A program made the translations under genes and the position numbers. The notes below the pieces were generated by a model. It saw only the letters and a list, made by a program, of their open reading frames with translations, was not told the origin of the DNA and did not search any database. From the IMG/VR virus record IMGVR_UViG_3300045988_060146: a DNA stretch of 57,663 nt; one strand, given 5' to 3'. This document shows positions 2,444 through 31,477 of this stretch, piece by piece (positions within the stretch are counted from its first letter, which is position 1; the number at the start of each line of letters is the position of its first letter). This DNA is from a virus.

Positions 2444-2759
2444 ATTTTTGCTCCAATAAATCAAATATTCTGTCAGCCGTGTATACAATATTCCGTCCGT
2501 ACAAGCTCATAAAGTCTGCGATTATTTCCTCTGTTTCTATGTCAATATCACAGCCGTATGAGAATGAGTACACATGCACCAACTCGTGGCATAGTATCTT
2601 GTCGGCCATGTAATCAGACACATTATCAGCTATCGTTACTGTCTTGGTTGTATTATCAGTCACTCCTAAACTTATTGTGCCGTCTGACCGCCTTAATTCA
2701 CTCGATGTGGGCTTTTTGAATTGTATGTGCCACAATGTATCATTAACTCTTATATCCAT
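2436..2759 (-). CDS. Small putative zinc metallopeptidase (HExxH)
   Basis: 107 aa with a CHELVHV motif in an ImmA/SprT-like context. Confidence 0.5.
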   Translation of the reverse strand: MDIRVNDTLWHIQFKKPTSSELRRSDGTISLGVTDNTTKTVTIADNVSDYMADKILCHELVHVYSFSYGCDIDIETEEIIADFMSLYGRNIVYTADRIFDLLEQKYG

Positions 2760-2811
2760 GCTTATGCCCTCTAAAAATGGCTATGAGCATTACTACCCAT
2801 AGCCTTAATAA

Positions 2812-3465: not shown

Positions 3466-3476
3466 ACTCTCGCCCC

Positions 3477-3905
3477 CTAACCAATTCGATTTACTGTGAT
3501 GTTAGCATTTGCAACACTGATAGCCTGTGCAGATGTATTCTTGACAGAAATTGCCTGACAGCATCCGCAAGGAAGCCATACATCTGTTGCCATAGACACA
3601 TTGTTAAATGCTTCAACTGCTGTTGGTGTAGAGATTGCCAGTGTAGATAAGTCCGGCTCGCCCTCGACAGCAATAGCTAATGAAATTGCTCCTGCGGTTC
3701 CGCCTGTAGGAACTGCAATATTTCCGTTAAATTCTATTCTGTACTTTGCTTTGCAAGTGTTGGTAGCGCCTTTAAGGTTAATTAATCCGCTCCCTGTTCT
3801 GTGTGAAATATATCCTTTATTGCATACAGACGTTGGCGCATCTGTAAATAATACATTTCCGTTTACTGCAACTGTCTGTGTTGCAACATTTGAAAATTCA
3901 GCCAT
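3477..3905 (-). CDS. BclA C-terminal/C1q-TNF-like jelly-roll domain protein (142 aa)
   Basis: Pattern V.F....G.I.H..GSG...L...G.Y.I.F.G...., then ..V.N.S......ANA.ITV.RIG, with PCGCC cysteines. Assigned by motif recall only. Confidence 0.45.
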   Translation of the reverse strand: MAEFSNVATQTVAVNGNVLFTDAPTSVCNKGYISHRTGSGLINLKGATNTCKAKYRIEFNGNIAVPTGGTAGAISLAIAVEGEPDLSTLAISTPTAVEAFNNVSMATDVWLPCGCCQAISVKNTSAQAISVANANITVNRIG

Positions 3906-4066
3906 AATAAAATCCTCTCTTTCACAAAATAAGGGCAAACATTATAGTCTGCCCTTGGGTTATAAGTAATACTGCTTAGCAGACATAATCTTGTATTCAA
4001 TTCTTCGAGTGGAAACTCGAAAGAAACTCGAAAGAACTCGATTAAGATACTCAATTATTTAATTGT

Positions 4067-4834
4067 TTAGCATCCGCAACCTGTATTACATCCGCATCCG
4101 TTATAAGCATATCCATAAAGGTTGCTTGCCGGGAATGATGGCACCGGTGTAGGTCTTACTGCATCAATAATCTGATTTGTCTGCGCTGCCATTGTAGTAG
4201 TCAGAAGTGCGTTCTGTCTATCCTGTGAAGCAGCTCTACGTAAATCATTGTTCTCTGCCTGTAAGGTTGCAATCTTGTCGTTTGTCAGGAATTCAAGAAT
4301 GGCTCTTGTTCCTGCCTGCTGGCTGTCAATAATATCTCTTGTATTATTGTTCATTGTGTTCTGCAAAGCACAAGTGTTAGTTGCCATGTTGTAGTTTACA
4401 CCCTGGATGGCTTCTCTCGTCTCGCAGCAACAGTTAGCAATCTGTGACTGTAAAGCGTTGGTATTCTGCATATTAGCAACTGTATCAGCGTTTACCGCCT
4501 GTTGTATGCCGTAGCCGGTCTGCATAATGTTTGTGTTTATGCCGTTAAAGCCTGTGAGCATACTGTTGTTCATAGCATAAAAGCCGTCACAAAGTCCGTT
4601 GGAAATGCCATCTAACTTGCTGATAACCGCCTGATTGTCAAAACCTCTCTGAATTTCGCTTCCGACACCACCATTAGTGCCACCGAAACCACCAAAGCCG
4701 TTACCCCAGCCTCCGAATATCGCAAATACTACGATAAGGAACCAAAGCCATGAGCCGTCATTCCAGTTATTTCCGTTGTTTCCGTCCAAATTCGCCACGA
4801 TAGGTACGCTTGGACAATTTCCTGTGTTGAACAT
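4067..4834 (-). CDS. Membrane-anchored Gly/Asn/Gln-rich protein with a Cys-rich C-terminus (255 aa)
   Basis: GGAGG RBS before MFNTG. TM segment WLWFLIVVFAIFGGWG, then GFGGFGGTNGG, a CCCE motif and the C-terminal tail NGCGCNTGCGC. Confidence 0.6.
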   Translation of the reverse strand: MFNTGNCPSVPIVANLDGNNGNNWNDGSWLWFLIVVFAIFGGWGNGFGGFGGTNGGVGSEIQRGFDNQAVISKLDGISNGLCDGFYAMNNSMLTGFNGINTNIMQTGYGIQQAVNADTVANMQNTNALQSQIANCCCETREAIQGVNYNMATNTCALQNTMNNNTRDIIDSQQAGTRAILEFLTNDKIATLQAENNDLRRAASQDRQNALLTTTMAAQTNQIIDAVRPTPVPSFPASNLYGYAYNGCGCNTGCGC

Positions 4835-4890
4835 CTGTTTTACCTCCAAAATTTATTTCATAAAGAGCCGTGCGCACGTTCTCTCATATG

Positions 4891-5088
4891 CTATATTCCA
4901 AAATTACCTTTAATCTGCTTCATTACATCATCAGGATTAATGCCTTTTTCCTTGCATAGGTTTCTTGCCATTTGTTCAATTCCCTTGCTGTTTCCGCTTT
5001 GAGCCATGCTCATTGCGTTCTTAATCATTGGATTTCCCATTACACGATTATTGCTCATTATCTGTTGCATTATTCCCATTACATTCAT
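4891..5088 (-). CDS. Hypothetical Met/Asn-rich small protein (65 aa)
   Basis: ORF translationally coupled (ATGA overlap) to the upstream gene. Confidence 0.5.
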   Translation of the reverse strand: MNVMGIMQQIMSNNRVMGNPMIKNAMSMAQSGNSKGIEQMARNLCKEKGINPDDVMKQIKGNFGI

Positions 5089-5540
5089 GCTTTTTCACTC
5101 TCCTTACTTTGTGTTCGTGGAGTTTTTCTTTGCGCCCCTAAAGATAATTGCTCAATTTTCTCAGATAGTTCGTTGAGCTTTGCCATAATACCCTCTGTGG
5201 CTTTCTCTGATAGGTCAAATTCAAGTTTTTCCGTGTCACCCGATAAAATGTCTGTCTTACCATTTAGAGCCGGTTTAAAAGTCAATGTGCGTATTGTTCC
5301 GTCAGCATTCCAGCTCTTGGCGTATATCTCTGTTAAATCCTGTTTTGGGAAAAATGCTACACTGCCATCCATTGGCACCTCGTTGGGATTGATAGTCTCA
5401 ACTGCCTGTACTACTCTGCCACTTATTCCTTGTGTCGGCTCGGGCTGCTGGTATCTCTGATAGTTTGCCATTGGGTTGTACTGATATGCTCCATAATTAG
5501 GTGTATAATTCATCATTGGTTGCTGATACGGCATGTTCAT
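5085..5540 (-). CDS. Hypothetical protein with a Q/N/Y/P-rich N-terminus (151 aa)
   Basis: GGAGGAAAACAAAG RBS. N-terminus is MNMPYQQPMMNYTPNYGAYQYNPMANYQRYQQP; C-terminus is coiled-coil-like. Confidence 0.6.
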   Translation of the reverse strand: MNMPYQQPMMNYTPNYGAYQYNPMANYQRYQQPEPTQGISGRVVQAVETINPNEVPMDGSVAFFPKQDLTEIYAKSWNADGTIRTLTFKPALNGKTDILSGDTEKLEFDLSEKATEGIMAKLNELSEKIEQLSLGAQRKTPRTQSKESEKA

Positions 5541-5761: not shown

Positions 5762-6038
5762 TTACTACACACTTTTTGGGGTGGTTACTACACAGTTACT
5801 ACACACTTTTCGCATTAAAATGCATTAAAATACATAGAATTTTATATTTTTTACGATTTTACGAAAGCTCCGCAGACCCTTTGTTTTCCTAGGATTGCGC
5901 CGTTATTTACGAAATCGTATGGCACTCCTTGATATACATAATAATTTTACCAGTTTTAGTATAAAAATACCCTACGAGCGTTGATTTTTCAACATTCTGT
6001 AAATTGAGAGTGTGTACTACTACACACTTACTACACAC
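5762..6038. promoter_or_regulatory. Putative attP with five direct TTACTACACA arm-type repeats
   Basis: Copies at 5762, 5785, 5796, 6017 (CTACTACACA) and 6028. They flank about 210 bp of non-coding DNA directly 3' of int. Confidence 0.5.
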
Positions 6039-7218
6039 ATTTTCTTCTATATTCTATGATTTTGTTGTCGGTGCTAACGATTTTTTCAATGTCAGCAAAC
6101 GATTTTTCAGGTGTAACATGTGTATACAAGTCCATTGTCATTTTCAGTGTTGCATGACCCAAATATGATTGAACGACTTTCGGCTCTATCCCTGACTCAA
6201 AACATCTTGTCGCAAACGTATGTCTAAACGTGTGACCGCTAAAAAATGGAAATTCATTGTCACTGCTCTTTGTATCATTTATCCGTCTTACAACTGAACG
6301 TATAGAGTCGCTGTATATAACCGAATTAATTGGTGTGTTAAACCTTGTAACAAACAAATATTCGTTTTGCTCCTTGGGTCTGCGTGCTGAAACTATCTTT
6401 TTAAGCTCAAATTGTTTCGTCAGATATTCCTTGCACACACTGTTAATTGGTACGTGTCTGTGACTCTGCTTGGTTTTTGGTGGCTCAACATGAAATGTCT
6501 TGCCTTTATCTTCAAGGTATTTCTGATACACAAGTGTCTTATTAACATCAATATACCCCTCGTCCATATGTATATCTGCAATCGTGAGTGCAAACAGTTC
6601 TCCTGGGCGCAAGCCTGTATTAACTGCCACATTATACATGTTGTCGTAAAATGTACCCTTGCACGCTTCAAAAAACTCGTTCTGTTGCTCTACTGTCAAT
6701 GCAAAAGCATTAACTTCTTTGTCTGCTCTCAGCTTTACACCTTTCGCCGGATTCTTAATCATCAGGTCATCTTCCATAGCTCTACTGAACATGTCATTTA
6801 AAATAACCTTGATTTTGCTCTGTCTCTCATACTTATAGTTATCGTCAGAAGCTTTGTCGATAAGTAACTGCACATCTGACTTGCGAATAGATGTTATTTC
6901 ATGGTTTCCTAAGTATGGTGAAATGTTCTTCTTATATATATGCGTGTACTCCCTAATGGTATTGGGGCGCACTCTCTTTTTCTTGTATACATTCATCCAC
7001 CTGTCAAACCACGCATCAAGGGTAATGCTGTCCCTAACACTTGTGAATTGTTGATTGTCGGTCACTGCTTTACTAAGTTCTTTCCGCAGTTCCGGCAACT
7101 TGCTGTTGTAAATTGTCTTGCTCTTGCCGAACCTATCTTTATATCTGCCCTGATAGAGTCCGTCCTTGCGCTGGGTTATTCCGACTCCCAGCTCTTTTCC
7201 TCTCAAATCCTTTCCCAT
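6031..7218 (-). CDS. int: Tyrosine integrase / site-specific recombinase
   Basis: 395 aa. N-terminal SAM-like domain; catalytic region includes HTFRHTFATRC and LGHATLKMTMDLYTHV. Confidence 0.92.
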   Translation of the reverse strand: MGKDLRGKELGVGITQRKDGLYQGRYKDRFGKSKTIYNSKLPELRKELSKAVTDNQQFTSVRDSITLDAWFDRWMNVYKKKRVRPNTIREYTHIYKKNISPYLGNHEITSIRKSDVQLLIDKASDDNYKYERQSKIKVILNDMFSRAMEDDLMIKNPAKGVKLRADKEVNAFALTVEQQNEFFEACKGTFYDNMYNVAVNTGLRPGELFALTIADIHMDEGYIDVNKTLVYQKYLEDKGKTFHVEPPKTKQSHRHVPINSVCKEYLTKQFELKKIVSARRPKEQNEYLFVTRFNTPINSVIYSDSIRSVVRRINDTKSSDNEFPFFSGHTFRHTFATRCFESGIEPKVVQSYLGHATLKMTMDLYTHVTPEKSFADIEKIVSTDNKIIEYRRKCV

Positions 7219-7306: not shown

Positions 7307-7708
7307 TTATATGCTATCTGTCTTTTCGAGGTATTTTTCAAACTCCTTGCGCTTAACTAATCGCTTGCCTCTTCCGACAAAGAGCACAAAAGGACACGAG
7401 GGATTGTTAAGCATATCATTGATTCTGTTAATTCCGATATTGCTGTATTCCGCAGCTTCATCAATCGTCAGCGTTACTTTTTCCCATATTGGCACTTTGT
7501 TAATCATCGCCTGGCTCCTTTCTATCTTTTCCTTAATGGTTGCCACTCTCCGGGAAGTGGTCGTTTTTGAAATTAATAGTCTCTGTGATACCTCTTCAAG
7601 GCTTTTATCAGCAACTAGCAACTTAAAAACTTCCGCTTCTTCATCGGTAAAATTGGCATTTTTCAAAATTTCTTCAAGTTCCGGCTTAGTAAGTTTTGAA
7701 AACTTCAT
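7307..7708 (-). CDS. xis: Excisionase-family DNA-binding protein with an extra sigma-70 region-4-like HTH
   Basis: C-terminus LTIDEAAEYSNIGINRINDML..GKRLVKRKEFEKYL resembles an excisionase HTH. Adjacent to int; start taken at MKFSKL after GGAGATAGG. Confidence 0.6.
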   Translation of the reverse strand: MKFSKLTKPELEEILKNANFTDEEAEVFKLLVADKSLEEVSQRLLISKTTTSRRVATIKEKIERSQAMINKVPIWEKVTLTIDEAAEYSNIGINRINDMLNNPSCPFVLFVGRGKRLVKRKEFEKYLEKTDSI

Positions 7709-7881
7709 AAGCCTATCTCCTATTCTTCGGTTTTGCTTGTACTGTGTATACAAGTATTTGAGTATCGGCATGAGCTGTTACACGGCTTGTTGTCCTCGTA
7801 TACACATTGTCTTTCAAATGGCTCTATATCACTTATAGTTCTGCTATTCATCTTATCATCACTTCCTCTCTGATAAATTAA

Positions 7882-17129: not shown

Positions 17130-17870
17130 TCATCCCCTTTCCTTAAAGCCCATTCCTTGTTGCGCTCTGCAACATCCACATTTGCCCCGCAAGCGACTTT
17201 TTTCATCTTCTCGATAAAATTATCTCTATCAGCATTTTCACTTGATAGATGACACATTATGACATTCTGCAAGCTATCTGAATAATTTGCCTTAACAAAA
17301 TCACAAGCCGTGTCAATACTTAAGTGACCTCTGAAAACGTGATTAGCTTTGCCTGTGTTATCCCTGTCAATTAAATCCTTGTCATAATTCACACCTAATA
17401 GAATGTGGTTTATATCTTTGAATTTCCATTTGACAACCTCACAATCGGTTATGTAAAGCATTCTCCCCATTTCCTTGTGCGTAATCAGAAAGCCGTATAT
17501 CGGGCAAGGTTCGCCATTTGCATTTGTGTGCGTCCAACTTCCGTCTATTGTTGTCAGGTCAAATGCCTTAACTTTAAAACCGCCAAATGGTATCGTGTGA
17601 TAACGATGTATGCCCTCGTGTTGTGCGTATTGTATATATGGTGTATAAATTGGTATTCCCATTGATTTAAAATCGTTCAATGACCTTGAATGGTCGTCAA
17701 TAATGCTCGTGTGAAATAAGGCAACCTACTATATTTTTTACATTCCAATCACACATCTTTTTTATGCCTTTAATTCCCATTCCCACATCAAGAATAAGTG
17801 TTTCGTTTTGTGACATAAGAGCGTAAGAATTTCCTTTACTTCCAGTTCCGCAACATTTCAATTTGAGCAT
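17117..17870 (-). pseudogene. Metallo-beta-lactamase-fold hydrolase gene split by a frame disruption inside the HxHxDH motif
   Basis: The 57-aa N-terminal ORF (17697..17870), MLKLKCCGTGSKGNSY...CLISHEHY, stops at a TGA. The +1 frame continues DDHSRSLNDFKSMGIP into ORF 17117..17680. Confidence 0.7.
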
Positions 17871-18457
17871 TACATCACCTCGCTTTCATCTGCAAGTTTC
17901 CAAATATATCCGCCCGCCTGTTTTCTAATGCTGCCTTTATTATTAAAAGGTTCTTTATTGGCTACTTGTAAAATATTTCTCCGACATATTCCTGTCATCC
18001 TACTTGCAACTTCTCCATTTACATATGTAGCGAGTAATACTCCATCCCTAGTGTATTGACATATTTTTCTCGGTTTCTCATATTTGTTATAATTAACAAT
18101 TCCTGTAACCACTTGCGGATGTGTTTTTTCCGTTTCTTTTCTGTGCCTCTTTGGATGAATATATTCCAAATTTGAAACGATATTGTTTTGCTTATTTCCG
18201 TCTTTGTGGTGTACTTGATATCCTCGCGGTCTGTCTCCTATAAAATGTTCTGAAACCAATTGATGTATTGCTATTGACTTCTTTTTGCCAGTTACAGAAT
18301 TTCTTAAAACAATGCGAAGATAATCTCCTGCTGCATTTTGATTTGATAGAATATATCCGCCCTCTGTCTTTTTAAAACTCTTTACTCTTCCGTAATTGGA
18401 AATCTGATATTGCCCCTCAAAGCCTTTTATCCACTTCCATTCTTCTTCCATTCGCAC
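17870..18457 (-). CDS. HNH homing endonuclease (NUMOD4 + HNH_3)
   Basis: WKWIKGFEGQYQISNYGRVKS (NUMOD4) and HHKDGNKQNNIVSNLEYI (HNH). Confidence 0.85.
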   Translation of the reverse strand: MRMEEEWKWIKGFEGQYQISNYGRVKSFKKTEGGYILSNQNAAGDYLRIVLRNSVTGKKKSIAIHQLVSEHFIGDRPRGYQVHHKDGNKQNNIVSNLEYIHPKRHRKETEKTHPQVVTGIVNYNKYEKPRKICQYTRDGVLLATYVNGEVASRMTGICRRNILQVANKEPFNNKGSIRKQAGGYIWKLADESEVM

Positions 18458-18746: not shown

Positions 18747-19820
18747 TCAGTCCTCCTCGCTCTGCATGAATGGCGGAAGCTCCTCTGACTGCTTTCCGGT
18801 TGTGCCTGTTGCCGTGGTGTCAACTACATCTGCCTTATCTTCTATAAACTCAACAGTATTAGCATTTTCGGCAATTTCAGCCTGTGCAACTTGATATACC
18901 TCGTCCATTTCAACCTGTGCCTGTCGTGCCATCGGGTCATAGTTCTTAGGGTATTTCCTTGTCGCATTGTTACACATTTTTCTCTGTATCATGCTCTCCG
19001 GAGTATCAAGCCAAGCACCGCTTATAAAAGGTCTTGCAAGCTCGCATTCGAGCATTTCATCTACTGTCGTACAACCTCTCAAAGCATTAAGAATTTCTTC
19101 TTTTTTAGCTTTAATCTCGCTTTTCTGCTTTGGTGTGGCATCCCATTTATCCTTGCAAATACCAAACGTAACATTTAACAAGTTTTGCTTAACATGAGCT
19201 AAAAGATTTACCTTAACGCTATTTCTGTCTGCTGTTAGATAAGTAATAGTTCCGTCTAACAACTTAACAGGATATACAACTCTTACTGCTTTATCAGACA
19301 ATCCTTTTTCTTCCCACTCCGGCTCTGTAACTGTAAGCCCTTTATGTTTAGGTGGAATATATACATCTCCCTCATGTATCACCCAATACGGATATACCTG
19401 TTTAACATCTTTTCCATAGTTGGCGAGCAAAGAGTCATAGCCTGTGCCCTCAATACCCATTTCAACCTGTTTCTGCCATACATCCTTGTTTGTCTGCGGG
19501 TCAACTCCCACCTTTACATTTCTTAACTGGAAGTAACACTCTCTTGGATATGCACTAGCATTTAACTTAAGGCTTGCGCAACGCTTAACAATGCCTCTTA
19601 AATTGCTTGTATCAAGGTTTCCCATATTAATCTTAGGGTCGCTCTTGACAAGGTTGAAAATGCTTGTCATGGCTTCCATAGCGCACTCTTTTGCGTAATC
19701 GTCCATATCCATTCCAACAGCCTTATAATCATTGATGATAAGTCCTGTCATTGTATTACTCCACTCACTTAATGAGGTGGTAAACGCTTTCTTTTCCGCA
19801 ACTGCTGTATTCTCTGCCAT
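18747..19820 (-). CDS. RecT/Red-beta-like single-strand annealing protein
   Basis: 357 aa. Placed between the SbcC-like ATPase and the MBL/SSB genes. Loose RecT-like core (CASLKLN...YF..R.......IEGTGYDSL...EGD). Not verified by search. Confidence 0.45.
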   Translation of the reverse strand: MAENTAVAEKKAFTTSLSEWSNTMTGLIINDYKAVGMDMDDYAKECAMEAMTSIFNLVKSDPKINMGNLDTSNLRGIVKRCASLKLNASAYPRECYFQLRNVKVGVDPQTNKDVWQKQVEMGIEGTGYDSLLANYGKDVKQVYPYWVIHEGDVYIPPKHKGLTVTEPEWEEKGLSDKAVRVVYPVKLLDGTITYLTADRNSVKVNLLAHVKQNLLNVTFGICKDKWDATPKQKSEIKAKKEEILNALRGCTTVDEMLECELARPFISGAWLDTPESMIQRKMCNNATRKYPKNYDPMARQAQVEMDEVYQVAQAEIAENANTVEFIEDKADVVDTTATGTTGKQSEELPPFMQSEED

Positions 19821-24499: not shown

Positions 24500-24511
24500 G
24501 TTTTCTCCTTT

Positions 24512-24721
24512 CTACTCGATAAAATAAGAAACTTCTACGCCAAAATAATTAGCAATCTTAATTAGCTTGTCTGTTTTTGGCATTGATTTTCCTGACTTCC
24601 AATCCGAAAAAGTACTCCGTGCCATTCCAAGCTCTTCCGACAGTTTGTAAAACGAAACGTTTCTAGCTTTTATGAGCGTGTCAAGTTTTTTAAAACTCGC
24701 CTGTCGTTTTTTCTTATTCAA
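24512..24721 (-). CDS. XRE-family HTH regulator (Cro-like), 69 aa
   Basis: TTG start after AAGGAGATGGG. HTH VSFYKLSEELGMARSTFSDWKSGKSMP. Confidence 0.7.
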   Translation of the reverse strand: MNKKKRQASFKKLDTLIKARNVSFYKLSEELGMARSTFSDWKSGKSMPKTDKLIKIANYFGVEVSYFIE

Positions 24722-24737
24722 TTTCCCATCTCCTTTC

Positions 24738-24766
24738 TTGACAATAGTTAGGAAATCCGTTACAAT
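24738..24766 (+). promoter_or_regulatory. Sigma-A promoter with an operator-like AGGAAATCCGTTA in the spacer
   Basis: TTGACA, 17 nt, TACAAT. The 13-mer is identical to the one in the promoter at 25796. Confidence 0.55.
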
Positions 24767-25096
24767 AAAAAGCGCCATATTAGGCAAAATACGCTAGGAG
24801 GTAAAAACCTTGAAAGCAATTTTGATTTTGCCTGTTCCATATTTGCGAGGTCGCATTTAAAATGTAGCAATCGGTGTAGCGCATTTTGGACAGTAAAGCT
24901 CGGCAAAAAATCATGGCTGGCATGTCGGCAATATGCCGTGCTACGCTAGATACTCCTCTCAATCCGTCAGCTAATGGCGATTAAACTGCTGAACTTAAAC
25001 TGCATAAGTGACGGAACATTTAAAGAAGCATTGTGTAGTACCAATGCGTTGAAAGACTTCAAAATGTATATGGTATAAAAAATATTGGAGGTCACT

Positions 25097-25462
25097 ATGC
25101 AATACAAACCAAATTACCCAAATATGGATAAATTATTTCCGCAACACAAAATTCCTAAAATTGAATCACCTACATATGAAAAAGACAAATCTCCATACGA
25201 GCTTTTAGAAAGTCAGTCTGCTTATCTCGAAAAGACAAGCAAGGAACTTCACGATATGGCTCAATCCGCTAAATCTCAAGCTGATTCCGCAAAAGAGATT
25301 GCTGAAAGTTCTAAAACGCAAGCTGATATTGCATTGGAAACATCGGGCAAGGCAGATGTTAAAGGTTGGATTTCTGTGGCTGTTTCTATCATCTGTGCTT
25401 TAATGGAATTTGCTGTACATCATTCAGAAATAATTGATTTTGTCAAAGCTTTGGCAAAATAA
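25097..25462 (+). CDS. Membrane-anchored coiled-coil protein (121 aa)
   Basis: GGAGG RBS. Repetitive SAKSQADSAKEIAESSKTQADIALE, then TM segment GWISVAVSIICALMEFAV. Confidence 0.55.
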   Translation: MQYKPNYPNMDKLFPQHKIPKIESPTYEKDKSPYELLESQSAYLEKTSKELHDMAQSAKSQADSAKEIAESSKTQADIALETSGKADVKGWISVAVSIICALMEFAVHHSEIIDFVKALAK

Positions 25463-25513
25463 AATGGCAAAAAATCTGAAACAGCAAAACAAATATTGAA
25501 AGCACTAATGCTA

Positions 25514-25535
25514 CATCTGAAACAGATGGTTTTTT
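25514..25535 (+). terminator. Rho-independent terminator
   Basis: CATCTG-AAA-CAGATG hairpin followed by GTTTTTT. Confidence 0.6.
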
Positions 25536-25554
25536 CATTTTTGCTCCTTTCTTT

Positions 25555-25767
25555 CTAATCCACGAAACTTTCAACCGGTTCATCAAGATAGCTTGCAATT
25601 TTAATCATGGTGTCTAATTTTGGCTTGCTTTTATCTCTCTTCCAATCTGAAAGCAACATAGGTGAAAAGTTCAAGTCTGTTGCTACTCGGTATGATGTGA
25701 TACCCTTTTTCTTCAAAATTTGCTCAAATCTCGAATATGATTGAGCATATTTCTTAGAATTATTCAT
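25555..25767 (-). CDS. XRE-family HTH regulator (Cro-like), 70 aa
   Basis: HTH ITSYRVATDLNFSPMLLSDWKRDKSKP. Divergent from the repressor gene. Confidence 0.75.
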   Translation of the reverse strand: MNNSKKYAQSYSRFEQILKKKGITSYRVATDLNFSPMLLSDWKRDKSKPKLDTMIKIASYLDEPVESFVD

Positions 25768-25795
25768 TTTTTACGCTCCTTTCCTTAAAAATATA

Positions 25796-25824
25796 TTGAT
25801 TTTATTAAGGAAATCCGTTATAAT
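25796..25824 (+). promoter_or_regulatory. Repressor-operon promoter with shared operator motif
   Basis: TTGATT, 17 nt, TATAAT. The spacer contains AGGAAATCCGTTA. TTAAGGAA/TTCCTTAA half-sites recur 4 times in 25781..25884. Confidence 0.6.
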
Positions 25825-25966
25825 GAAACTTACCAAGACAACAAAATAACAAAATTAAAACCTAGGTTTTAAGGCTTTCCTTAATCTAGGTCTAGTATAT
25901 TATGGTTTTCTTTAATTGTCAAGCATTATTTTAAAGTTTTCCATAATAATTTATGAGGGGTTTTTT

Positions 25967-26317
25967 ATGTATGAACATTATCAGAAATTACTAGACGAAA
26001 AAGGCTTGAAAAATGCCGATGTTTCAAGAGCTACAGGCATTTCAAACATGACTCTATCTGATTGGAAAAGAGGAAAGAGCGAGCCAAAAACTAAAAATAT
26101 GCAGAAAATTGCCGATTTTTTAGGAACTACCTTATCATATCTAGTTACAGGTGAAGAAAGTAACCCTATATTTGAACAAGCAAATACAGATTATGACCTT
26201 TCAAATATAGACAGTAAGCTCAAGGACTATGTATTTAAGTTATCTAAATTGTCGGATAAAGAGCTGGAAAGTATTATGAATTTAATAGATGTAATGTATG
26301 AAAAATACTCAAAATAA
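25967..26317 (+). CDS. XRE-family repressor (CI-like), 116 aa
   Basis: HTH LKNADVSRATGISNMTLSDWKRGKSEP plus a C-terminal extension. No S24 peptidase domain. Confidence 0.7.
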   Translation: MYEHYQKLLDEKGLKNADVSRATGISNMTLSDWKRGKSEPKTKNMQKIADFLGTTLSYLVTGEESNPIFEQANTDYDLSNIDSKLKDYVFKLSKLSDKELESIMNLIDVMYEKYSK

Positions 26318-26348
26318 ATTAAATTAATAAGAAAGGTGGTATTTTATT

Positions 26349-26576
26349 ATGAGTAAAACTGTTAAATGTCCTAAATTTGGTTGTGATGGTGTTGGCATAC
26401 CTGTTGATACCAAGAAAAAATTCTCGTTCGGTAAAGCGCTTGTTGGCAACACAGTAGGTGGTCTCTTCGGACCTGTCGGTGCCGTTGTCGGCGCTGCTAC
26501 CGGAATTAAAGGCAAGAGCGGCAAAACAAAGTTTGTGTGTTCAAAGTGTGGTAATGTTTGGGAAAAGAAAATATAA
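26349..26576 (+). CDS. Split zinc-ribbon protein with a central glycine-zipper segment (75 aa)
   Basis: CPKFGC ... GNTVGGLFGPVGAVVGAATGIKG ... CSKCG. Co-transcribed with the repressor. Confidence 0.6.
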   Translation: MSKTVKCPKFGCDGVGIPVDTKKKFSFGKALVGNTVGGLFGPVGAVVGAATGIKGKSGKTKFVCSKCGNVWEKKI

Positions 26577-26582
26577 CCACAA

Positions 26583-26611
26583 GGCAGAGTTTTTACTCTG
26601 CCTCTATTTTT
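26583..26611. terminator. Bidirectional rho-independent terminator
   Basis: GGCAGAG-TTTTTA-CTCTGCC hairpin followed by TCTATTTTT. Confidence 0.7.
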
Positions 26612-26697
26612 CCTTTAATAAATACATACAAGTACAATAACAGGTCTTTATCTTCCAAGCCCTCAATCATTTTAATTATTTCTTCTTTATATTCCAT
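26593..26697 (-). CDS. 34-aa ORF downstream of the SOS-box promoter
   Basis: GGAGGTGG RBS 7 nt before the ATG. Product MEYKEEIIKMIEGLEDKDLLLYLYVFIKGKIEAE. Ends in the terminator hairpin. Confidence 0.4.
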   Translation of the reverse strand: MEYKEEIIKMIEGLEDKDLLLYLYVFIKGKIEAE

Positions 26698-26720
26698 ACA
26701 ATGCCACCTCCGATACATCA

Positions 26721-26749
26721 ATTATAGAACATTTGTTCTTAAATATCAA
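26721..26749 (-). promoter_or_regulatory. Sigma-A promoter with an embedded LexA (Cheo) box
   Basis: Minus strand reads TTGATA, 17 nt, TATAAT. The spacer contains AGAACAAATGTTCT (GAAC-N4-GTTC) abutting the -10 box. Confidence 0.6.
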
Positions 26750-26899
26750 TATTAGGACGGCAGAAAAATCCACCGCCCTACCGAAACTTGAAGAGTTCTC
26801 TTGTTTGAGAACGTCATTACTGTAGCACTTTAAAGTGTTTTATTATGTCGAATATTGACAACATGGATTGTTTTGTAACCCTATTCCTGTAAAATAATC

Positions 26900-26926
26900 G
26901 AGAGGGCTTATGCCCTCTCTTTTTAT
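26900..26926. terminator. Strong hairpin terminator
   Basis: GAGAGGGC-TTAT-GCCCTCTC followed by TTTTTAT. Confidence 0.7.
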
Positions 26927-26950
26927 GCACAAAATCCTATTTGTGATAGT

Positions 26951-27280
26951 CTGCTAAACCAGAGTTTAGGTAATTTAAAGACAGAGTTTAATAAATCAAA
27001 TAGCATAAAAATTAAAGTTGGCACCGCAGTAAGAACAGCGACAAAGGGTGGAAATTCGTTTGTGTTATTTACCTTAGAAGAAGTCGAAAAAATGTTTGAG
27101 TTAGAAAGTCTCGCTACTAATAATATTGCTATATTAATAAGTAATGGTGATGGATCGGCTTTTCCTTGTCACTTAGAAGGTGTAACTGTATTAAATAATA
27201 AATGGCATGTAGTTTTTAAAGATATAATACAAATGAATATGAGTTGTAGAGTTCAATATGTAATATTTTATTGGAAATAA
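26951..27280 (+). other. Start-less alternative tail-fibre C-terminal cassette (silent in this orientation)
   Basis: Frame is open from 26879 with no ATG or RBS and runs through the terminator at 26900. In-frame LLNQSL junction. Stop codon lies 3 nt from the fibre gene's stop. Confidence 0.45.
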
Positions 27281-27283
27281 TAA

Positions 27284-28864
27284 TTATGTAGTAACGTATT
27301 CACCACTCATAATAATTGCGTACTTACCTGTTCCACCCTGATTTACTATATAACCATTTGAATCACTGTAGCATGGAACATAAGAGCCAGTACCTTTAAA
27401 TGCTGAAAAAGCATGGCAAGTTGTTTGTTTCATAGGATATTTGTTAATTTTAACTCTCCATGCCCCATCATTAGAATTTGCTATTTTACATCGTATTACA
27501 AAATAGACAAGTTTTCCTATCTTATAAACTTCCAAATAAAAGGCATTGCTGCTTTCTAAAGCAATTGAACCAGAAAAAGTTACATAATTAGTTGGTATAG
27601 TCGAAGTATAATAATCAATATCTAAACTTCGGTTTAATTCATCATATTTGTCATTTAAAATCTTGCCTTGACTCGCGTCTAATGCGCTTCCAGTGGTAGA
27701 AGTCGTGAGGTTATTCACCAAATCTTTAAAGGCAAAGCTTTTCAAATCAGCGAACCACTTCTTAATTTTTCCGAAGCCGACCGACACTTTTTCACCAGAA
27801 ACAAGGTTTGCTCTAGTTGTTGTAGCGGCAAAAGTAACTGTTGTATCGCTTATATTTCCACCTTCTGCAACCGCTCCGATATTGGCAGGAGTTATGTTTA
27901 CATTTCCTCTGCGATAATATGCTTCTTTTGCACCTTTTACTCCTGTTACCGGTGTGCCGGCAAGCACATCCCAATATCTATCAACAGTTAAATATACGTT
28001 ACTTCCGGCAGGAATTATATTACCAGCCCCCTCTTTAAAATCAGTGGTTGTGGTAAACTGGTCGGTTATATTGTACATATCACCAGAATTAGCATCCGCT
28101 GTGCTCGGTAAGTCGGCAAAGTTGATTGTTCCAAGAGGTCTTAATGCTCCGCTGAAGCTCTCAGATATTTCTTTAACTTGTTCTGCGTACTTTTGCGCTT
28201 CCGACTCGCTCTTTGCAGAGTTAGTCTCACTTGTCTTAGCATTGGTTTCAGAAGCCTTGGCTTTTGTTTCACTTGTCTTAGCGTTACTTGCAAAAGTTGA
28301 CGCGCTAGTAGCAGAAGCCTTGGCATTAGTTTCACTGTTTTTTGCGTTAGCTGCGCTTGTAGATGCATTAGTCTCTGATTTCTTGGCATTAGTTTCACTG
28401 GTCTTAGAATTTGTTTCACTCGCTTTAGCGTTACTTGCAGAGGTAGACGCACTGGTCTCACTTGCTTTAGCTTTTGTTTCACTCGCTTTAGCATTGGTTT
28501 CACTATTCCTTGCTTTTGTGGCCGAGTTTGACGCGTTGGTTTCACTGGTCTTTGCGTTGGTCTCGCTAGTTTTAGCATTACTTGCAGAGGTGGATGATTC
28601 TTGAGCTTTGCTTGTGGCAAGTTCTGCTGATTTTTGAGCTTGTGATACAGATTGAGCCATGCCGTCAAGATAGCTCTGAATAAGTCTTTGAATTTCAGTG
28701 TCAAAATCCTCAACAGTTCCCATCCGCTTAACTATTCCGGGTGCGAAACACATCCATATCTGCTGTTTTTTCGTGTCGGAGTCGGTCGATACCGCCCATT
28801 CTCCAGCTTTCATTTTTAAGGGGTCAAACTCCGCGTATGCCCCTCGTCTCATTTGAATTGCCAT
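27284..28864 (-). CDS. Tail fibre / receptor-binding protein
   Basis: N-terminus MAIQMRRGAYAEFDPLKMKAGEWAVSTDS (HylP/Mtd-N-like), heptad SETNAK repeat stalk and a globular C-terminus. Last gene of the tail module. Confidence 0.75.
   Translation of the reverse strand: MAIQMRRGAYAEFDPLKMKAGEWAVSTDSDTKKQQIWMCFAPGIVKRMGTVEDFDTEIQRLIQSYLDGMAQSVSQAQKSAELATSKAQESSTSASNAKTSETNAKTSETNASNSATKARNSETNAKASETKAKASETSASTSASNAKASETNSKTSETNAKKSETNASTSAANAKNSETNAKASATSASTFASNAKTSETKAKASETNAKTSETNSAKSESEAQKYAEQVKEISESFSGALRPLGTINFADLPSTADANSGDMYNITDQFTTTTDFKEGAGNIIPAGSNVYLTVDRYWDVLAGTPVTGVKGAKEAYYRRGNVNITPANIGAVAEGGNISDTTVTFAATTTRANLVSGEKVSVGFGKIKKWFADLKSFAFKDLVNNLTTSTTGSALDASQGKILNDKYDELNRSLDIDYYTSTIPTNYVTFSGSIALESSNAFYLEVYKIGKLVYFVIRCKIANSNDGAWRVKINKYPMKQTTCHAFSAFKGTGSYVPCYSDSNGYIVNQGGTGKYAIIMSGEYVTT
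28187..28645 (-). repeat. Coding tandem repeat, 21-nt (7-aa) periodicity
   Basis: About 20 units of (K/A)xSETNA, for example NAKTSETNAKTSETNASNS... Confidence 0.85.
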
Positions 28865-28867
28865 AAG

Positions 28868-31477
28868 CTATACCTCGCTTTCGTCAATGCCTAATTTCTG
28901 ACACAATCTTGAAAACTTATCTTCCAGTTCATCTGTGTGTTTTTGCATCTTATCAATCTTCTGCTCGTCTCCGGCAAGTCTTAAGATTAGGAATTGCTCA
29001 TAGTTCATGCCATAGTACAGTGTATCATCATCCGATGTTGCTTTATTTTGGAAAATCATATCAAGATTTTCATCGACATGTCCTTTATCTTTAAGATTCT
29101 CGATTATATCCTGCGCCATTGCTCCAAAATATAACGGCTTGTCTGAATATCCTCGTCTGTTAAGATTGTATTGGAATAAATCAACCGAGCCTACTGCATC
29201 AATATAATCTTGATTAATTGCTTTAATATTCTTTTTTAAGTGTTTATCTGACGAACTCCATACCCAAGTAGTATCAACTTGGAAACTTAAGGCACTGCCA
29301 TTCCAACCGCAATGGTATGTATGCCCTGTTGCGTCACCACACATTGCATATCCTCTATCGGTTTCTCTGAATTTATCAGAGCCTATCTCTTGAGCATACA
29401 TTGTCTGTGCACCTATAGAGCCTGTGGCTCCGTAAATGGTAATCAAGTTCTCATCATTTTTGACAATTCGCAATACCGCACCATTCATCCAAAGCTCATA
29501 ATTGTTTCCTGAATTGTCAGTGGCCGTTAAATCAATCGTTGAATTACTTAAATTTCCGTTCAGTGCAATACTCCCACCGGACATATTAAGATTTGAAGCG
29601 GTTACTTTTCCATCACTATCAACTGCAAACACTCCATTTCCAATATCAATTGTTCCGCCAACAATATTCTTGCCGGTAATTGTTGTTCCTGTGATGTCCT
29701 CCGCGTCAACTGAACCGGCCTTAACATCAAGTGCATTTACATAGCTTGTAGTCACTGTGTCTTTGGTTATTTGAGTGACTTTAGCAGTAGCTTCAGCCAC
29801 ATTATCCCAAGCAATTTTCACACTGCTATCAAGTGCAATGCCTTTATTATCCAGCGTTACAAGTGTCTTTCCGTTTGCGTCTTTGACATACTGCTTGCCG
29901 TTTGTGTTATTCTCACCGCCTAAAGTGAGCGTGCCACCATGCGCCCAGTCAAAATTAATGCCAATAGCAGACATAATATTGAAAATAGCGTTTCCGTCTT
30001 TATCAATTCCGGCATTCCACGTTTTACCATAGTCACTTGATACAGCCATGCCATTAGCCGTCATTTTCCACTGTATGTTGCTCGAATTAAGGTCGGCTTT
30101 ATTGTGCATGATGTAAATAATCGAGCCATCCTCTTGCTTCTGCTCGGTCTTAAAAAGTCCGAGTGATTGTGACATTAGCTGTGTCAGTAATTGCATTTGC
30201 TTGTCATATGCACTTAGTTGTGCCTGTGCAACTTTCCTAGCTTGTACGACAGCCTTTGTCTCATTACTGAATTTATCAGCACTATTTCTTGAAGCATTTT
30301 CAGCGTCGCACGAAATTTTTGTGCCACTTCCAACTGTAAATGTTCGGTTAGAAATAAAACAGCTATAGGTATTCTGCTTGCGGTCTGTCACAAGTGCTAC
30401 ATCTCCGCTCTCAATCAGTGGGTTTGACAAGAGTGTAGCATCAAGGGGTCTGAACCTCATGCCACCGATTTTTTTGAATATATAGTTTGCAACTGTCTGT
30501 GCCTTGTCTGCCGGAATGAAGGGATTGTCAGAGATTGAGACTACATATCCCTCTTTTCCGGCAAGTGCATTAACATCTTTTGCCTTATCCTCTTTTGAGG
30601 TTACAGTTACCTTTACCCCGGTGATAACAACATCATCAGTCGCAACATTCAAGTCTTTTTGCGTGTAAATATTGTGGTAATTTCTCGCCTCCGTGAATGT
30701 TCCACCATCAGCAATATCTCCACTTGAATAGTCGGTAAAATTTCCACCATCAACACTATCTCCGTCAGAGTATGGTGTAGTTTTTGTGCTAAAAGTTCCA
30801 CCATTGTAATTTTGGCTCCCAAACTGGCTCATATCATACCAGCCGATAAGCAATTCGCCATCATGACCGCACTTGCCCCATAATCCACTCAACTGCAAAA
30901 TATAGGCTATTACTTGTCCATATGTGAGCTTTTGATTATCACTCGGTATCTCGTTAATCACGTAATCAGAGTTATCAAATCTCGCCATAGTAAAAGGTAC
31001 ATCACACTTAATACAAGCGTCTCTGACTACCTCATACGTTGTCGTAGGGTAGCTTAAATTGCTATCATACTCACGATTGAAATTATTAATATTGTCAAGA
31101 CAAGTAAGCGTTATAAGCGAGCCGTCATAGCTTGTCTCGCTGACTCTATACTCACCGATTTTTAGTTTTTCACTTGTGCCATCAGAAAAGCTTTTTGAAA
31201 CATATGCTGTTACTCTTGCCTTGTCAAAATCATACTTGCTGTAATCTTCATAAATATTATTCAGCTTAATTTTCAGTTTTCCGGCAATCAAAGCCCCGAT
31301 TGTGAAAGTGCCATTGCTTGATGTTGAGTCATTAATTTCGAAGCCATTCGCCCACAGCTCACTATCACTAATAGGGATTTTTTCGCCACTTGCCGTAACT
31401 ATGTCAGCAAAACAATTTACATTTATATCATTATCGAGCATTACTGCTCTTTGCCATTTAGCCGATACGTTAAGCAT
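28868..31477 (-). CDS. Tail tip/tail-associated protein with a C-terminal S74 intramolecular chaperone domain
   Basis: 869 aa. C-terminus SSDKHLKKNIKAI...LFQYNLN...YFGAMAQDI is typical of the S74 auto-processing domain. Confidence 0.75.
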   Translation of the reverse strand: MLNVSAKWQRAVMLDNDINVNCFADIVTASGEKIPISDSELWANGFEINDSTSSNGTFTIGALIAGKLKIKLNNIYEDYSKYDFDKARVTAYVSKSFSDGTSEKLKIGEYRVSETSYDGSLITLTCLDNINNFNREYDSNLSYPTTTYEVVRDACIKCDVPFTMARFDNSDYVINEIPSDNQKLTYGQVIAYILQLSGLWGKCGHDGELLIGWYDMSQFGSQNYNGGTFSTKTTPYSDGDSVDGGNFTDYSSGDIADGGTFTEARNYHNIYTQKDLNVATDDVVITGVKVTVTSKEDKAKDVNALAGKEGYVVSISDNPFIPADKAQTVANYIFKKIGGMRFRPLDATLLSNPLIESGDVALVTDRKQNTYSCFISNRTFTVGSGTKISCDAENASRNSADKFSNETKAVVQARKVAQAQLSAYDKQMQLLTQLMSQSLGLFKTEQKQEDGSIIYIMHNKADLNSSNIQWKMTANGMAVSSDYGKTWNAGIDKDGNAIFNIMSAIGINFDWAHGGTLTLGGENNTNGKQYVKDANGKTLVTLDNKGIALDSSVKIAWDNVAEATAKVTQITKDTVTTSYVNALDVKAGSVDAEDITGTTITGKNIVGGTIDIGNGVFAVDSDGKVTASNLNMSGGSIALNGNLSNSTIDLTATDNSGNNYELWMNGAVLRIVKNDENLITIYGATGSIGAQTMYAQEIGSDKFRETDRGYAMCGDATGHTYHCGWNGSALSFQVDTTWVWSSSDKHLKKNIKAINQDYIDAVGSVDLFQYNLNRRGYSDKPLYFGAMAQDIIENLKDKGHVDENLDMIFQNKATSDDDTLYYGMNYEQFLILRLAGDEQKIDKMQKHTDELEDKFSRLCQKLGIDESEV

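What the first reader, a model, noticed from the sequence alone, without database searches (positions are those of the whole stretch)
26951..27640. Start-less alternative fibre C-terminus bounded by in-frame inverted repeats: candidate invertible host-range cassette
The fibre gene (27284..28864, minus) is followed tail-to-tail, with 3 nt between the stop codons, by a plus-strand frame open from 26879 to 27280. That frame has no ATG or RBS, and its 5' end runs through a strong terminator hairpin (26900..26926), so it cannot be expressed where it sits. A 15-nt imperfect inverted repeat, TAAACC-RR-AGTTTAG, lies at 26955..26969 and, as its reverse complement, at 27622..27636 (13/15 identical). In both ORFs it is read in the same codon phase: LNQSL in the silent frame and LNRSL in the fibre. 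Inverting the roughly 680 bp between the repeats would replace the last 112 aa of the fibre with a different 103-aa C-terminus. The layout and the AAACC..GTTT core recall the Mu G and P1 C segments (gix/cix sites). Two caveats apply: no serine invertase is encoded (only the tyrosine integrase), and the two central bases differ (AG versus GA). It could therefore be a decayed switch, or one dependent on a host recombinase or the integrase.
Basis: partly seen in the sequence, partly recalled or inferred. Interest (0 to 1): 0.8.

Follow-up and report, generated by a model that had tools for sequence, protein, structure and literature searches.

The report
Orphan shufflon cassette swapping phage fibre tip
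The silent reading frame behind this gut-phage tail-fibre gene is a real spare receptor-binding tip, bounded by the crossover sites of a tyrosine-recombinase shufflon whose enzyme is carried by a different prophage of the same bacterium (Agathobacter rectalis).

Summary
The fibre gene (27284..28864, minus) lies tail-to-tail with a start-less plus-strand frame, and a 13/15 inverted repeat sits in the same codon phase (LNQSL / LNRSL). The repeat alone is at chance level: 5 such pairs observed against 5.0 expected. Comparative data validate it. The silent frame is the expressed C-terminus of the same fibre in more than 120 relatives. Relatives with matching flanks carry the 654-bp segment in the opposite orientation. 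The core CCAGAGTTTA is the crossover site at every cassette junction of a multi-cassette shufflon in another A. rectalis prophage lineage. There it sits beside a 348-aa Xer-like tyrosine recombinase, and inversions are seen between samples. The window's phage lineage holds at least 8 different two-cassette segments between the same two sites. Five of the eight match shufflon segments end to end at 92-99.9% identity. The window is a complete circular genome with no invertase, only its integrase. I conclude it is an orphan shufflon segment, not a Gin/Cin-type switch, and probably static unless the recombinase is supplied in trans. Four independent assemblies are 100% identical and in one orientation. 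It is a new variant of a known kind (Rin and R64 shufflons).

The parts
27623..28864 (-). Constant part of the tail-fibre gene (aa 1-414), ending ...KYDELNRSL
   Evidence: ORF. PHROG tail-fibre families and PF22337 hit. It is 98-99% identical to the constant part of fibres that carry other C-termini.
27622..27635 (-). Constant-side crossover site AAACCGAAGTTTAG (core CCGAAGTTTA at 27632..27623). It has two substitutions relative to the family core CCAGAGTTTA.
   Evidence: Colinear homology with L007 ends here. The same variant site is joined to the GNLKT cassette in L058 and to the SFKVK cassette in L062.
27287..27622 (-). Expressed C-terminal cassette, called DIDYY here (112 aa), followed by the stop at 27284-86. 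It is a head domain like that of a receptor-binding protein.
   Evidence: It is 95-97% identical to shufflon cassettes in L001 and P0203. AlphaFold gives pLDDT 89. The top Foldseek hits are the Det7 tailspike C-terminus, the TP901-1 RBP head and the reovirus sigma1 head (E = 2e-3, probability 1.0, TM 0.5-0.63).
26969..27280 (+). Silent, start-less alternative C-terminal cassette, called GNLKT here (103 aa plus stop)
   Evidence: 24 homologues found. It is 99% identical to the L001 cassette. It is the expressed C-terminus of more than 120 fibres with this same constant part. There is no stop in 103 codons, with P = 0.001 for this composition. pLDDT is 81, with weak similarity to the beta-sandwich at tailspike C-termini.
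26956..26969 (+). Outer crossover site AAACCAGAGTTTAG (core CCAGAGTTTA at 26959-26968), a perfect match to the family core
   Evidence: It is the only exact copy of the core in the genome. Homology with L001 (98.2%) begins at 26959.
26871..26955 (.). Outer flank containing a bidirectional terminator hairpin (26900-26919). It is conserved in related phages that carry a two-cassette segment and absent from relatives that have lost the second cassette.
   Evidence: The flank pattern retrieved 15 more loci.

Best explanation
Window 26956-27635 is a two-cassette invertible segment (654 bp between cores) of a tyrosine-recombinase shufflon family that circulates among temperate phages of Agathobacter rectalis.

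The fibre has a constant part that ends in LN(R/Q)SL. This is encoded by the 10-bp crossover core CC(AG/GA)AGTTTA. After it comes one of two alternative receptor-binding tips lying tail-to-tail. At present the DIDYY head, which resembles the TP901-1 RBP head, is fused and expressed. The GNLKT domain is promoterless and start-less, and points at the fibre's stop codon. A conservative crossover between the two inverted cores would fuse GNLKT in frame and silence DIDYY.

This phage encodes no invertase, so the locus is an orphan. It is static on its own. It is flipped, or has its whole segment replaced, only when the 348-aa Xer-like recombinase of a co-resident prophage of the other lineage (the lineage of locus L001) acts on it in trans.

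Shown here:
- the anatomy of the locus;
- the identity of the silent frame as a fibre tip that is in use;
- the identity of the sites with shufflon sites that lie next to the recombinase;
- inversions between samples in the recombinase-bearing lineage;
- both orientations, and at least 8 segment types, at the same two sites in this phage's lineage;
- end-to-end sharing of segments between the two lineages;
- absence of an invertase from the complete genome.

Inferred:
- action of the recombinase in trans;
- a crossover within AGTTTA;
- a change in host range.
For: - Silent frame as fibre tip. It is homologous to the C-termini of called proteins, and homology starts exactly at LNQSL. A chimeric 'flipped' query finds more than 120 fibres of about 420 aa at 82-92% identity and 100% coverage.
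- Recombinase-bearing relatives. L001-L003, L012 and L016 have a constant gene, many tail-to-tail cassettes and an adjacent 348-aa recombinase carrying PF13495 and PF00589. CCAGAGTTTA sits at every junction. Segments are inverted in L001 versus L002, and in L001 versus L003. One constant flank is joined to 5 different cassettes.
- Opposite orientation. L058 has a constant part 99.2% identical (including CCGAAG) and the same hairpin and outer flank, but the opposite orientation. L013-L015 are also flipped. P0209 is the reciprocal joint.
- Segment sharing. 17 loci of this lineage carry 8 segment types between the same sites. Five of the eight types match L001-type shufflon segments from site to site at 92.6-99.85%.
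- Same host. The recombinase cluster and the fibre relatives are both named Agathobacter rectalis.
- No invertase. The window has a 55-nt terminal overlap, so it is a complete circle. tblastn with the recombinase and with Hin, plus Pfam on 30 ORFs, finds only the Tn916-type integrase and Xis. There is no recombinase homologue in 227 kb of lineage loci.
Against: - No read-level evidence of inversion exists for this genome.
- Three further independent assemblies carry the identical 851 bp in the same orientation as the window.
- One segment type (DNTKK/SFKVK) has the same orientation in all 6 loci, so flipping in place is at best infrequent.
- Where both orientations occur, the alleles differ (85% nt between the window and L058). 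Independent acquisitions could therefore explain the orientations without in-situ flipping.
- Most relatives (about 35 of 41 IMG/VR loci) have lost the second cassette.
- The constant-side site differs from the core at two positions.
- Co-residence of the two prophages in one cell was not demonstrated.
Confidence: 0.72

Rival explanations
1. Fossil switch. The segment was acquired or inverted in the past by a shufflon recombinase. It is now permanently locked, because the genome has no invertase and the constant-side core carries two substitutions. On this view the silent cassette is a decaying remnant.
For: - Identical sequence and orientation in 4 assemblies.
- Most relatives have deleted the silent cassette and keep only 10-11 nt of it.
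- In L014 and L015 the outer site is degenerate.
- No recombinase is present in cis.
Against: - The silent frame is intact (P = 0.001 by chance) and 99% identical to a copy resident in a shufflon.
- The outer site is perfect.
- The CCGAAG constant-side site is joined to three different cassettes in genomes with near-identical constant parts. At least two exchanges therefore happened after that substitution arose.
Confidence: 0.2
2. The inversion is catalysed by the phage's own Tn916-type integrase (6031..7218) or by a chromosomal host recombinase. The recombinase of the other prophage lineage is not involved.
For: The integrase is the only recombinase in the genome. Master invertases that act in trans are known in other gut bacteria, as cited in PMC6109161.
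Against: The identical 10-bp core flanks every cassette directly beside the 348-aa recombinase in the other lineage. The first site lies 12-15 nt after that recombinase's stop codon. Whole segments are shared with that lineage. The integrase is only 33% identical to the recombinase over 76 aa.
Confidence: 0.06
3. A Gin/Cin/Hin-type serine-invertase switch (G or C segment with gix/cix sites).
For: The layout is similar: tail-to-tail alternative fibre ends. The sites have an AAACC..GTTT look.
Against: tblastn with Hin finds nothing, and no Resolvase domain turns up in 30 ORFs. In relatives the site is associated with a tyrosine recombinase. The central dinucleotides are incompatible for a 2-bp staggered exchange.
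Confidence: 0.01
4. Chance inverted repeat beside an unrelated small gene, the 72-aa GTG ORF at 27062..27280.
For: The repeat is at chance level on its own. Gene callers annotate the 72-aa ORF (P0017).
Against: Homology extends upstream of the GTG as far as the site in all relatives. The full domain is the C-terminus of more than 120 fibres. Breakpoints coincide with the sites.
Confidence: 0.01

Closest known systems
Rin shufflon of Bifidobacterium prophages (Mavrich et al. 2018, PMC6109161)
   Same: It is encoded by temperate gut phages. A constant N-terminal part of the receptor-binding protein is joined to several alternative C-terminal cassettes. A short (11-bp) asymmetric crossover repeat lies upstream of each cassette. 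The adjacent tyrosine recombinase is armless and Xer-like. The cassettes resemble the TP901-1 RBP head (compare).
   Different: The host phylum differs (Firmicutes / Lachnospiraceae). The core sequence differs (CCAGAGTTTA versus TTCCCTAACCC). The cassettes are arranged as tail-to-tail pairs. The shufflon of the L001-type lineage spans the recombinase and two neighbouring genes (one with a weak CmpB match, possibly lysis-related). The window's phage has only two sites and no recombinase. Homology of the recombinase to Rin was not tested.
Orphan ~500-bp invertible locus of bifidophages 689b-1 and Bb423phi2 (same paper, PMC6109161)
   Same: A small start-less gene and the 3' end of its neighbour are inverted between two related phages at a short repeat. 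No recombinase flanks the locus, and the authors proposed an invertase supplied in trans.
   Different: In the present case the likely donor of the recombinase can be named. The same sites and the same segments are found beside it in another prophage lineage of the same host species.
R64 / IncI1 plasmid shufflon (Rci recombinase, sfx sites, PilV); from my own knowledge
   Same: A tyrosine recombinase acts on segments that each carry two partial ORFs tail-to-tail. Each partial ORF can be fused to one constant N-terminal region. The conserved core has a non-conserved arm on one side.
   Different: The target there is a conjugative-pilus adhesin, not a phage fibre, and the 19-bp sfx site is unrelated in sequence. 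In R64 the recombinase is always in cis.
Mu G segment / P1 C segment / p15B Min (serine invertases Gin, Cin, Min)
   Same: The outcome is the same: inversion swaps the C-terminus of a tail fibre and thereby the host range.
   Different: Those systems use a different enzyme family, a 26-bp site with a 2-bp crossover, and a Fis/enhancer requirement. None of these was found here.

Membership tests
Tyrosine-recombinase shufflon (Rin / R64 type) | One constant N-terminal coding region that can be fused in frame to alternative start-less C-terminal cassettes | tested here: met
   The window has the constant part at 27623-28864 with the DIDYY cassette fused and the GNLKT cassette silent. The same constant part is fused to GNLKT in more than 120 proteins, and to other cassettes in L060-L073.
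Tyrosine-recombinase shufflon (Rin / R64 type) | The same short crossover repeat at every cassette junction, in inverted orientation around each segment | tested here: met
   CCAGAGTTTA occurs at 37 distinct junction sequences and CCGAAGTTTA at 2 more, 39 in all across the loci. The window has one perfect copy (26959-68) and one copy with 2 substitutions (27623-32), in inverted orientation.
Tyrosine-recombinase shufflon (Rin / R64 type) | A dedicated armless tyrosine recombinase encoded next to the cassettes | tested here: not met
   It is present in L001-L003, L012 and L016 (348 aa, PF13495 plus PF00589, Xer-like). It is absent from the complete circular window and from 227 kb of same-lineage loci. 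The window is therefore an orphan segment of such a system, not a complete shufflon.
Tyrosine-recombinase shufflon (Rin / R64 type) | Inversions observed with breakpoints at the repeats | tested here: met
   L001 versus L002 and L001 versus L003. Window versus L058, L013-L015 and P0209. L060 versus L063. All of these are comparisons between samples, not within one population.
Tyrosine-recombinase shufflon (Rin / R64 type) | Inversion within a clonal population of this genome (phase variation) | not testable with these tools
   No reads are available. Four assemblies have the same orientation.
Serine-invertase fibre switch (Gin / Cin / Min) | An adjacent serine recombinase of the resolvase/invertase family | tested here: not met
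   tblastn with Hin finds no hit at E <= 1. No Resolvase domain was found in the 30 ORFs scanned.
Serine-invertase fibre switch (Gin / Cin / Min) | Paired 26-bp sites with an identical central dinucleotide for a 2-bp staggered exchange | tested here: not met
   The central bases are AG versus GA. Conservation across relatives covers an asymmetric 10-bp core, not a 26-bp dyad.
Receptor-binding head domains of phage fibres | A fold similar to solved RBP or fibre tips, for both alternative C-termini | tested here: inconclusive
   The DIDYY domain matches the TP901-1 RBP head, the Det7 tailspike C-terminus and the reovirus sigma1 head (E = 2e-3, probability 1.0, TM 0.5-0.63). The GNLKT domain gives only weak matches to tailspike C-terminal domains (E = 0.04, TM 0.4-0.46). 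No Pfam or PHROG family hits the silent GNLKT frame. The fibre's hits (PF22337, PHROG tail-fibre families) end at residues 411 and 343, so none covers the DIDYY cassette (aa 415-526) either.

The most novel reading that the evidence does not exclude
A distributed shufflon. One A. rectalis prophage lineage encodes the invertase and a pool of at least 10 tail-to-tail tip-cassette segments. At least one unrelated phage lineage (this window's) keeps only a two-site docking locus at the end of its own fibre gene. Other constant regions, beginning MAVSEKK... and MAKYLD..., may do the same. When the phages share a cell, the recombinase flips or swaps whole segments between genomes. This would be natural recombinase-mediated cassette exchange, and it would let receptor-binding tips spread horizontally between phages that share no flanking homology.
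Probability: 0.5. Interest if true: 0.8.

Novelty: new variant of a known kind. Interest (0 to 1): 0.66.

Why it matters
Agathobacter rectalis is one of the most abundant human gut bacteria, and its phages are almost uncharacterised. Neither phage lineage has a close relative among deposited phage genomes.

Shufflons driven by tyrosine recombinases have so far been described for phages only in Bifidobacterium and Eggerthella prophages. Here the same logic appears in Lachnospiraceae phages, with a twist. The cassettes and their crossover site are shared by several unrelated fibre genes in different phages, and most of the carriers lack the enzyme.

If the recombinase works in trans, host-range determinants would move between co-resident prophages by site-specific cassette exchange. 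That route of phage evolution is distinct from homologous recombination and from diversity-generating retroelements. It is directly testable with one recombinase gene and a 0.8-kb substrate. The 10-bp core also gives a simple search key for such loci in metagenomes.

Tried and rejected
- megablast of 26300-29000 and tblastn of the silent frame against 50,697 deposited phage genomes found nothing.
- Pfam and PHROGs have no family for the silent frame.
- A scan of GTDB species-representative genomes with the GNLKT alignment found nothing.
- A test of the repeat's significance on its own showed it to be at chance level.
- The pattern AAACCRRAGTTTAG occurs only at the two sites. It was derived from those sites, so I give it no weight.
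- In some searches my 'GNLKT' protein query was translated one base out of frame (start 26970 instead of 26969). The coordinates of those hits are valid, but their percent identities, and the GNLKT dN/dS values, are not. One search repeats the analysis in the correct frame.
- Literature searches for this system in A. rectalis or Lachnospiraceae phages found nothing specific.
- I did not attempt a systematic test of co-occurrence of the two prophages in the same samples, because the look-up tool lists too few places per protein.
Full report
**1. The observation**

- The fibre ORF is 27284..28864 on the minus strand, 526 aa.
- A plus-strand frame is open from 26879 to 27280.
- Three nucleotides lie between the two stop codons.
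- TAAACCAGAGTTTAG lies at 26955-69, and its 13/15 inverted copy lies at 27622-36.
- Both copies are read in the same phase, as LNQSL and LNRSL.
- The hairpin (26900-26919 plus a T-run) scores as terminator-like on both strands.

Two details need correction. The frame has an in-frame GTG at 27062, giving a 72-aa ORF that gene callers annotate in relatives. The repeat on its own is not significant. In 26500-29000 there are 5 inverted 15-mer pairs with at most 2 mismatches, and random Markov-1 sequences give 5.0 on average. The repeat finder ranks it eighth of 81. If it is meaningful, the evidence has to come from elsewhere.

**2. The silent frame is a real fibre tip**

The frame has no Pfam or PHROG family and no match in deposited phage genomes. 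In the large protein collection it has 24 homologues at 55-94% identity.
- Some are about 110-aa calls that begin MY(N/S)QSL...
- Others are proteins of 179-198 aa with proper N-termini that read ...GYAADATTVAALNQSL|GNLKT....
- In every case homology begins exactly at LNQSL.

I then built the product predicted by inversion: fibre residues 225-414 plus the 103 silent residues. This query finds more than 120 fibres of about 420 aa at 82-92% identity over 100% of its length, one of them named Agathobacter rectalis. The alignment shows a constant part that is nearly identical through KY(D/G)ELN(R/Q)SL, followed by the GNLKT domain. The 'flipped' fibre is thus the common form in nature.

The frame has no stop in 103 codons (P = 0.001 for this composition) and is 99% identical to a copy in another phage.

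Structure prediction gives the following.
- The expressed DIDYY tip is a confident beta-domain (pLDDT 89). It resembles the TP901-1 receptor-binding head, the Det7 tailspike C-terminus and the reovirus sigma1 head (E = 2e-3, probability 1.0, TM 0.5-0.63).
- The GNLKT tip (pLDDT 81) gives only weak matches to tailspike C-terminal beta-sandwiches.

**3. The repeat is a shufflon crossover site**

The closest copies of the silent frame lie in a different prophage, represented by loci L001-L003. That prophage has:
- a 190-aa gene with a constant N-terminus ending AALNQSL;
- many small tail-to-tail ORF pairs;
- an adjacent 348-aa tyrosine recombinase (PF13495 plus PF00589, Xer-like, below every NCBIfam cut-off).

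The core CCAGAGTTTA sits at every cassette junction, on both strands. Between samples, segments are inverted with breakpoints in the core. Segment 5695-6357 is flipped in L001 versus L002, and segment 3826-4513 in L001 versus L003. In L016 the DIDYY/GNLKT pair sits beside the recombinase, whereas in L001 it sits beside the integrase, on the far side of two genes. One of those genes has a weak PF06541 (ABC_trans_CmpB) match and may be lysis-related; its function was not tested.

Across all loci the core occurs in 39 distinct junction sequences. The constant flank of the 190-aa gene is joined to five different cassettes. Flank-side triplets stay with the flank, and the base after GTTTA stays with the cassette, so the crossover lies within CCAGAGTTTA.

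The recombinase cluster includes WP_306785012.1, 'tyrosine-type recombinase/integrase [Agathobacter rectalis]', which is found on 163 contigs including a 3.76-Mb genome. It has at most 30-37% identity to anything in deposited phage genomes.

**4. The window's own lineage**

The common relatives (L007-L010) are syntenic with the window: tape measure, DUF6711 protein, 845-aa tail protein, fibre, then the 75-aa zinc-ribbon gene and the repressor. They have one tip only. blastn against L007 shows three blocks:
- window 28295->27619 is colinear with L007 (93%);
- window 26955..27294 is the inverted counterpart of the L007 fibre tip (90%);
- window 26870->26302 is colinear again (96%).

These relatives keep 10-11 nt of the 3' end of the DIDYY cassette after their stop codon. 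They look like deletion derivatives locked on GNLKT.

Other relatives keep two cassettes in the opposite orientation to the window.
- L014 and L015 have a constant part 98.5% identical.
- L013 is also flipped.
- L058 is the clearest case. Its constant part is 99.2% identical at the DNA level, including the CCGAAG variant. It has the same hairpin and outer flank with a perfect core. It has GNLKT fused and DIDYY silent.
- P0209 (32 member sequences) is the reciprocal joint: outer flank QNPICYSLLNQSL followed by DIDYY.

Searching for the outer flank plus core retrieved 15 more loci. Between the same outer site and the same fibre constant part they carry 8 different two-cassette segments. Two of these are seen in both orientations. 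Five of the eight types match shufflon segments of the recombinase-bearing lineage end to end:

| Locus of this lineage | Matching shufflon segment | Identity |
|---|---|---|
| window | L003 | 98.3% |
| L058 | L011 | 99.85% |
| L063 | L012 | 99.7% |
| L060 | L012 (same pair as L063, opposite orientation) | 92.6% |
| L069 | L012 | 94.9% |
| L070 | L016 | 98.5% |

The other three segment types found no match among the seven loci searched. The flanks outside the 10-14-bp sites are unrelated between the two lineages. Site-specific exchange is therefore the simplest explanation, not homologous recombination.

**5. No enzyme in cis**

The window has an exact 55-nt terminal overlap, so it is a complete circular genome of about 57.6 kb. 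tblastn with the 348-aa recombinase and with Hin, and Pfam scans of 30 ORFs, find only the Tn916-type integrase (6031..7218) and Xis (7307..7771). No homologue of the recombinase occurs in 227 kb of same-lineage loci.

**6. Is the switch live?**

Evidence for a live switch:
- the silent frame is intact;
- the outer core is perfect and is the only copy in the genome;
- the CCGAAG constant-side site is joined to DIDYY (window), GNLKT (L058) and SFKVK (L062) in genomes with near-identical constant parts.

The third point implies exchanges after that substitution arose, and a crossover in the shared AGTTTA.

Evidence against:
- three further independent assemblies have the identical 851 bp in the window's orientation;
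- one segment type has a single orientation in six loci;
- most relatives have lost the second cassette.

I conclude that the locus is static by itself and changes only when the recombinase is supplied. The most plausible supplier is a co-resident prophage of the other lineage in the same host species. This last step is an inference.

**7. Comparison with known systems**

The closest known system is the Rin shufflon of Bifidobacterium prophages. It has a tyrosine invertase, an 11-bp rix repeat and tips resembling the TP901-1 RBP. The same paper describes an orphan invertible locus in two bifidophages and proposes an invertase acting in trans (PMC6109161). The R64 Rci/sfx shufflon shares the tail-to-tail segment design (my own knowledge). 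Programmed inversions in tail-fibre genes are a recognised class (PMC9881135). The Mu G / P1 C analogy holds for the outcome only.

I found no description of this system in A. rectalis or Lachnospiraceae phages.

**8. Verdict**

The window contains an orphan segment of a tyrosine-recombinase shufflon. The new element is that one cassette pool and one crossover site are shared by several unrelated fibre genes in different phages, most of which lack the recombinase.

Noticed in passing
window 28200-28600 (minus-strand fibre gene): The fibre shaft contains about 13 or more copies of a 21-nt (7-aa, SETNAKx) tandem repeat. Copy number varies among otherwise near-identical fibres, which are 420, 441, 489, 526 (the window) and 631 aa long. 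Fibre length is therefore a second variable feature.
   Followed up: partly
window 1-55 and 57609-57663: There is an exact 55-nt terminal direct overlap. The contig is thus a circularly closed assembly, that is, a complete phage genome.
   Followed up: yes
L007 6264-6274 and about 35 IMG/VR loci (L017-L057): Single-tip relatives keep 10-15 nt of the 3' end of the DIDYY cassette (TACTACATAA...) just after their fibre stop codon. This suggests they arose by deletion of the silent cassette, the outer site and the hairpin.
   Followed up: partly
L005 6222-6256; proteins P0006, P0015, P0016, P0019-P0022: A second constant region (MAVSEKKVTGKFYRIWS...) carries two or three tandem near-copies of the site, read as LNQSVTELNQSL or LNQSVTTLNQSVTDLNQSL. 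In L005 it is followed by a truncated 142-aa recombinase and no further cassettes, an apparently locked derivative.
   Followed up: no
proteins P0004 and P0210: A third, very short constant region (MAKYLD(F/L)TGLKYFITKRIGKTDISKIGDGTCTGAIS(A/T)LNQSL) is found fused to GNLKT in one protein and to DIDYY in another, the latter named Agathobacter sp. The same cassettes therefore serve at least four different constant regions.
   Followed up: no
L001 1795-6357; L016 4125-9391: In the recombinase-bearing prophage the crossover sites lie on both sides of the recombinase gene and of two neighbouring genes (253 aa, no family hit, and 147 aa with a weak PF06541/CmpB match, possibly lysis-related). The DIDYY/GNLKT pair occupies different positions in L001 and L016. 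Some inversions must therefore flip the recombinase and those genes themselves.
   Followed up: partly
window 26969-27277 compared with L005, L007, L013, L015, L016, L058: dN/dS between GNLKT alleles is 0.9-2.5, against 0.26-0.54 for DIDYY alleles. This could mean diversifying selection on the GNLKT tip or relaxed constraint on silent copies. Comparisons between expressed copies only were not run.
   Followed up: partly
window 27040-27064: A Shine-Dalgarno-like AAGGGTGG lies 9 nt upstream of the in-frame GTG at 27062. A truncated 72-aa product of the silent cassette is conceivable. The same bases encode the conserved TKGGN, so this may be incidental.
   Followed up: no
window 24500-27284 and 2436-5540: The fibre gene is followed directly by the immunity region (zinc-ribbon gene, HTH repressor, Cro-like gene, Bro-N/ORF6C anti-repressor) rather than by a lysis cassette. 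No holin or endolysin was recognised in the ORFs scanned. ORFs 2436-5540 next to the integrase hit only PHROGs of unknown function, apart from a weaker second match (5.3e-06) of ORF 2439-2759 to a PHROG annotated 'peptidase'.
   Followed up: partly
window 17870-18457 (minus): A NUMOD4 plus HNH_3 homing-endonuclease-like ORF lies inside the replication/recombination module, next to the RecT-like gene at 18747-19820.
   Followed up: no
L001 2482-2458 compared with window 27622-27600: The DIDYY cassette exists in a short form, where the site is followed directly by GATATTGATTAT (window, L016, P0203, P0211). It also exists in a long form with 8-10 extra codons ((K/SGL)KTN(I/V)DNLG) that end in an internal AATTTAG resembling the right half of the site. 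The short form may have arisen by a crossover at this pseudo-site.
   Followed up: no
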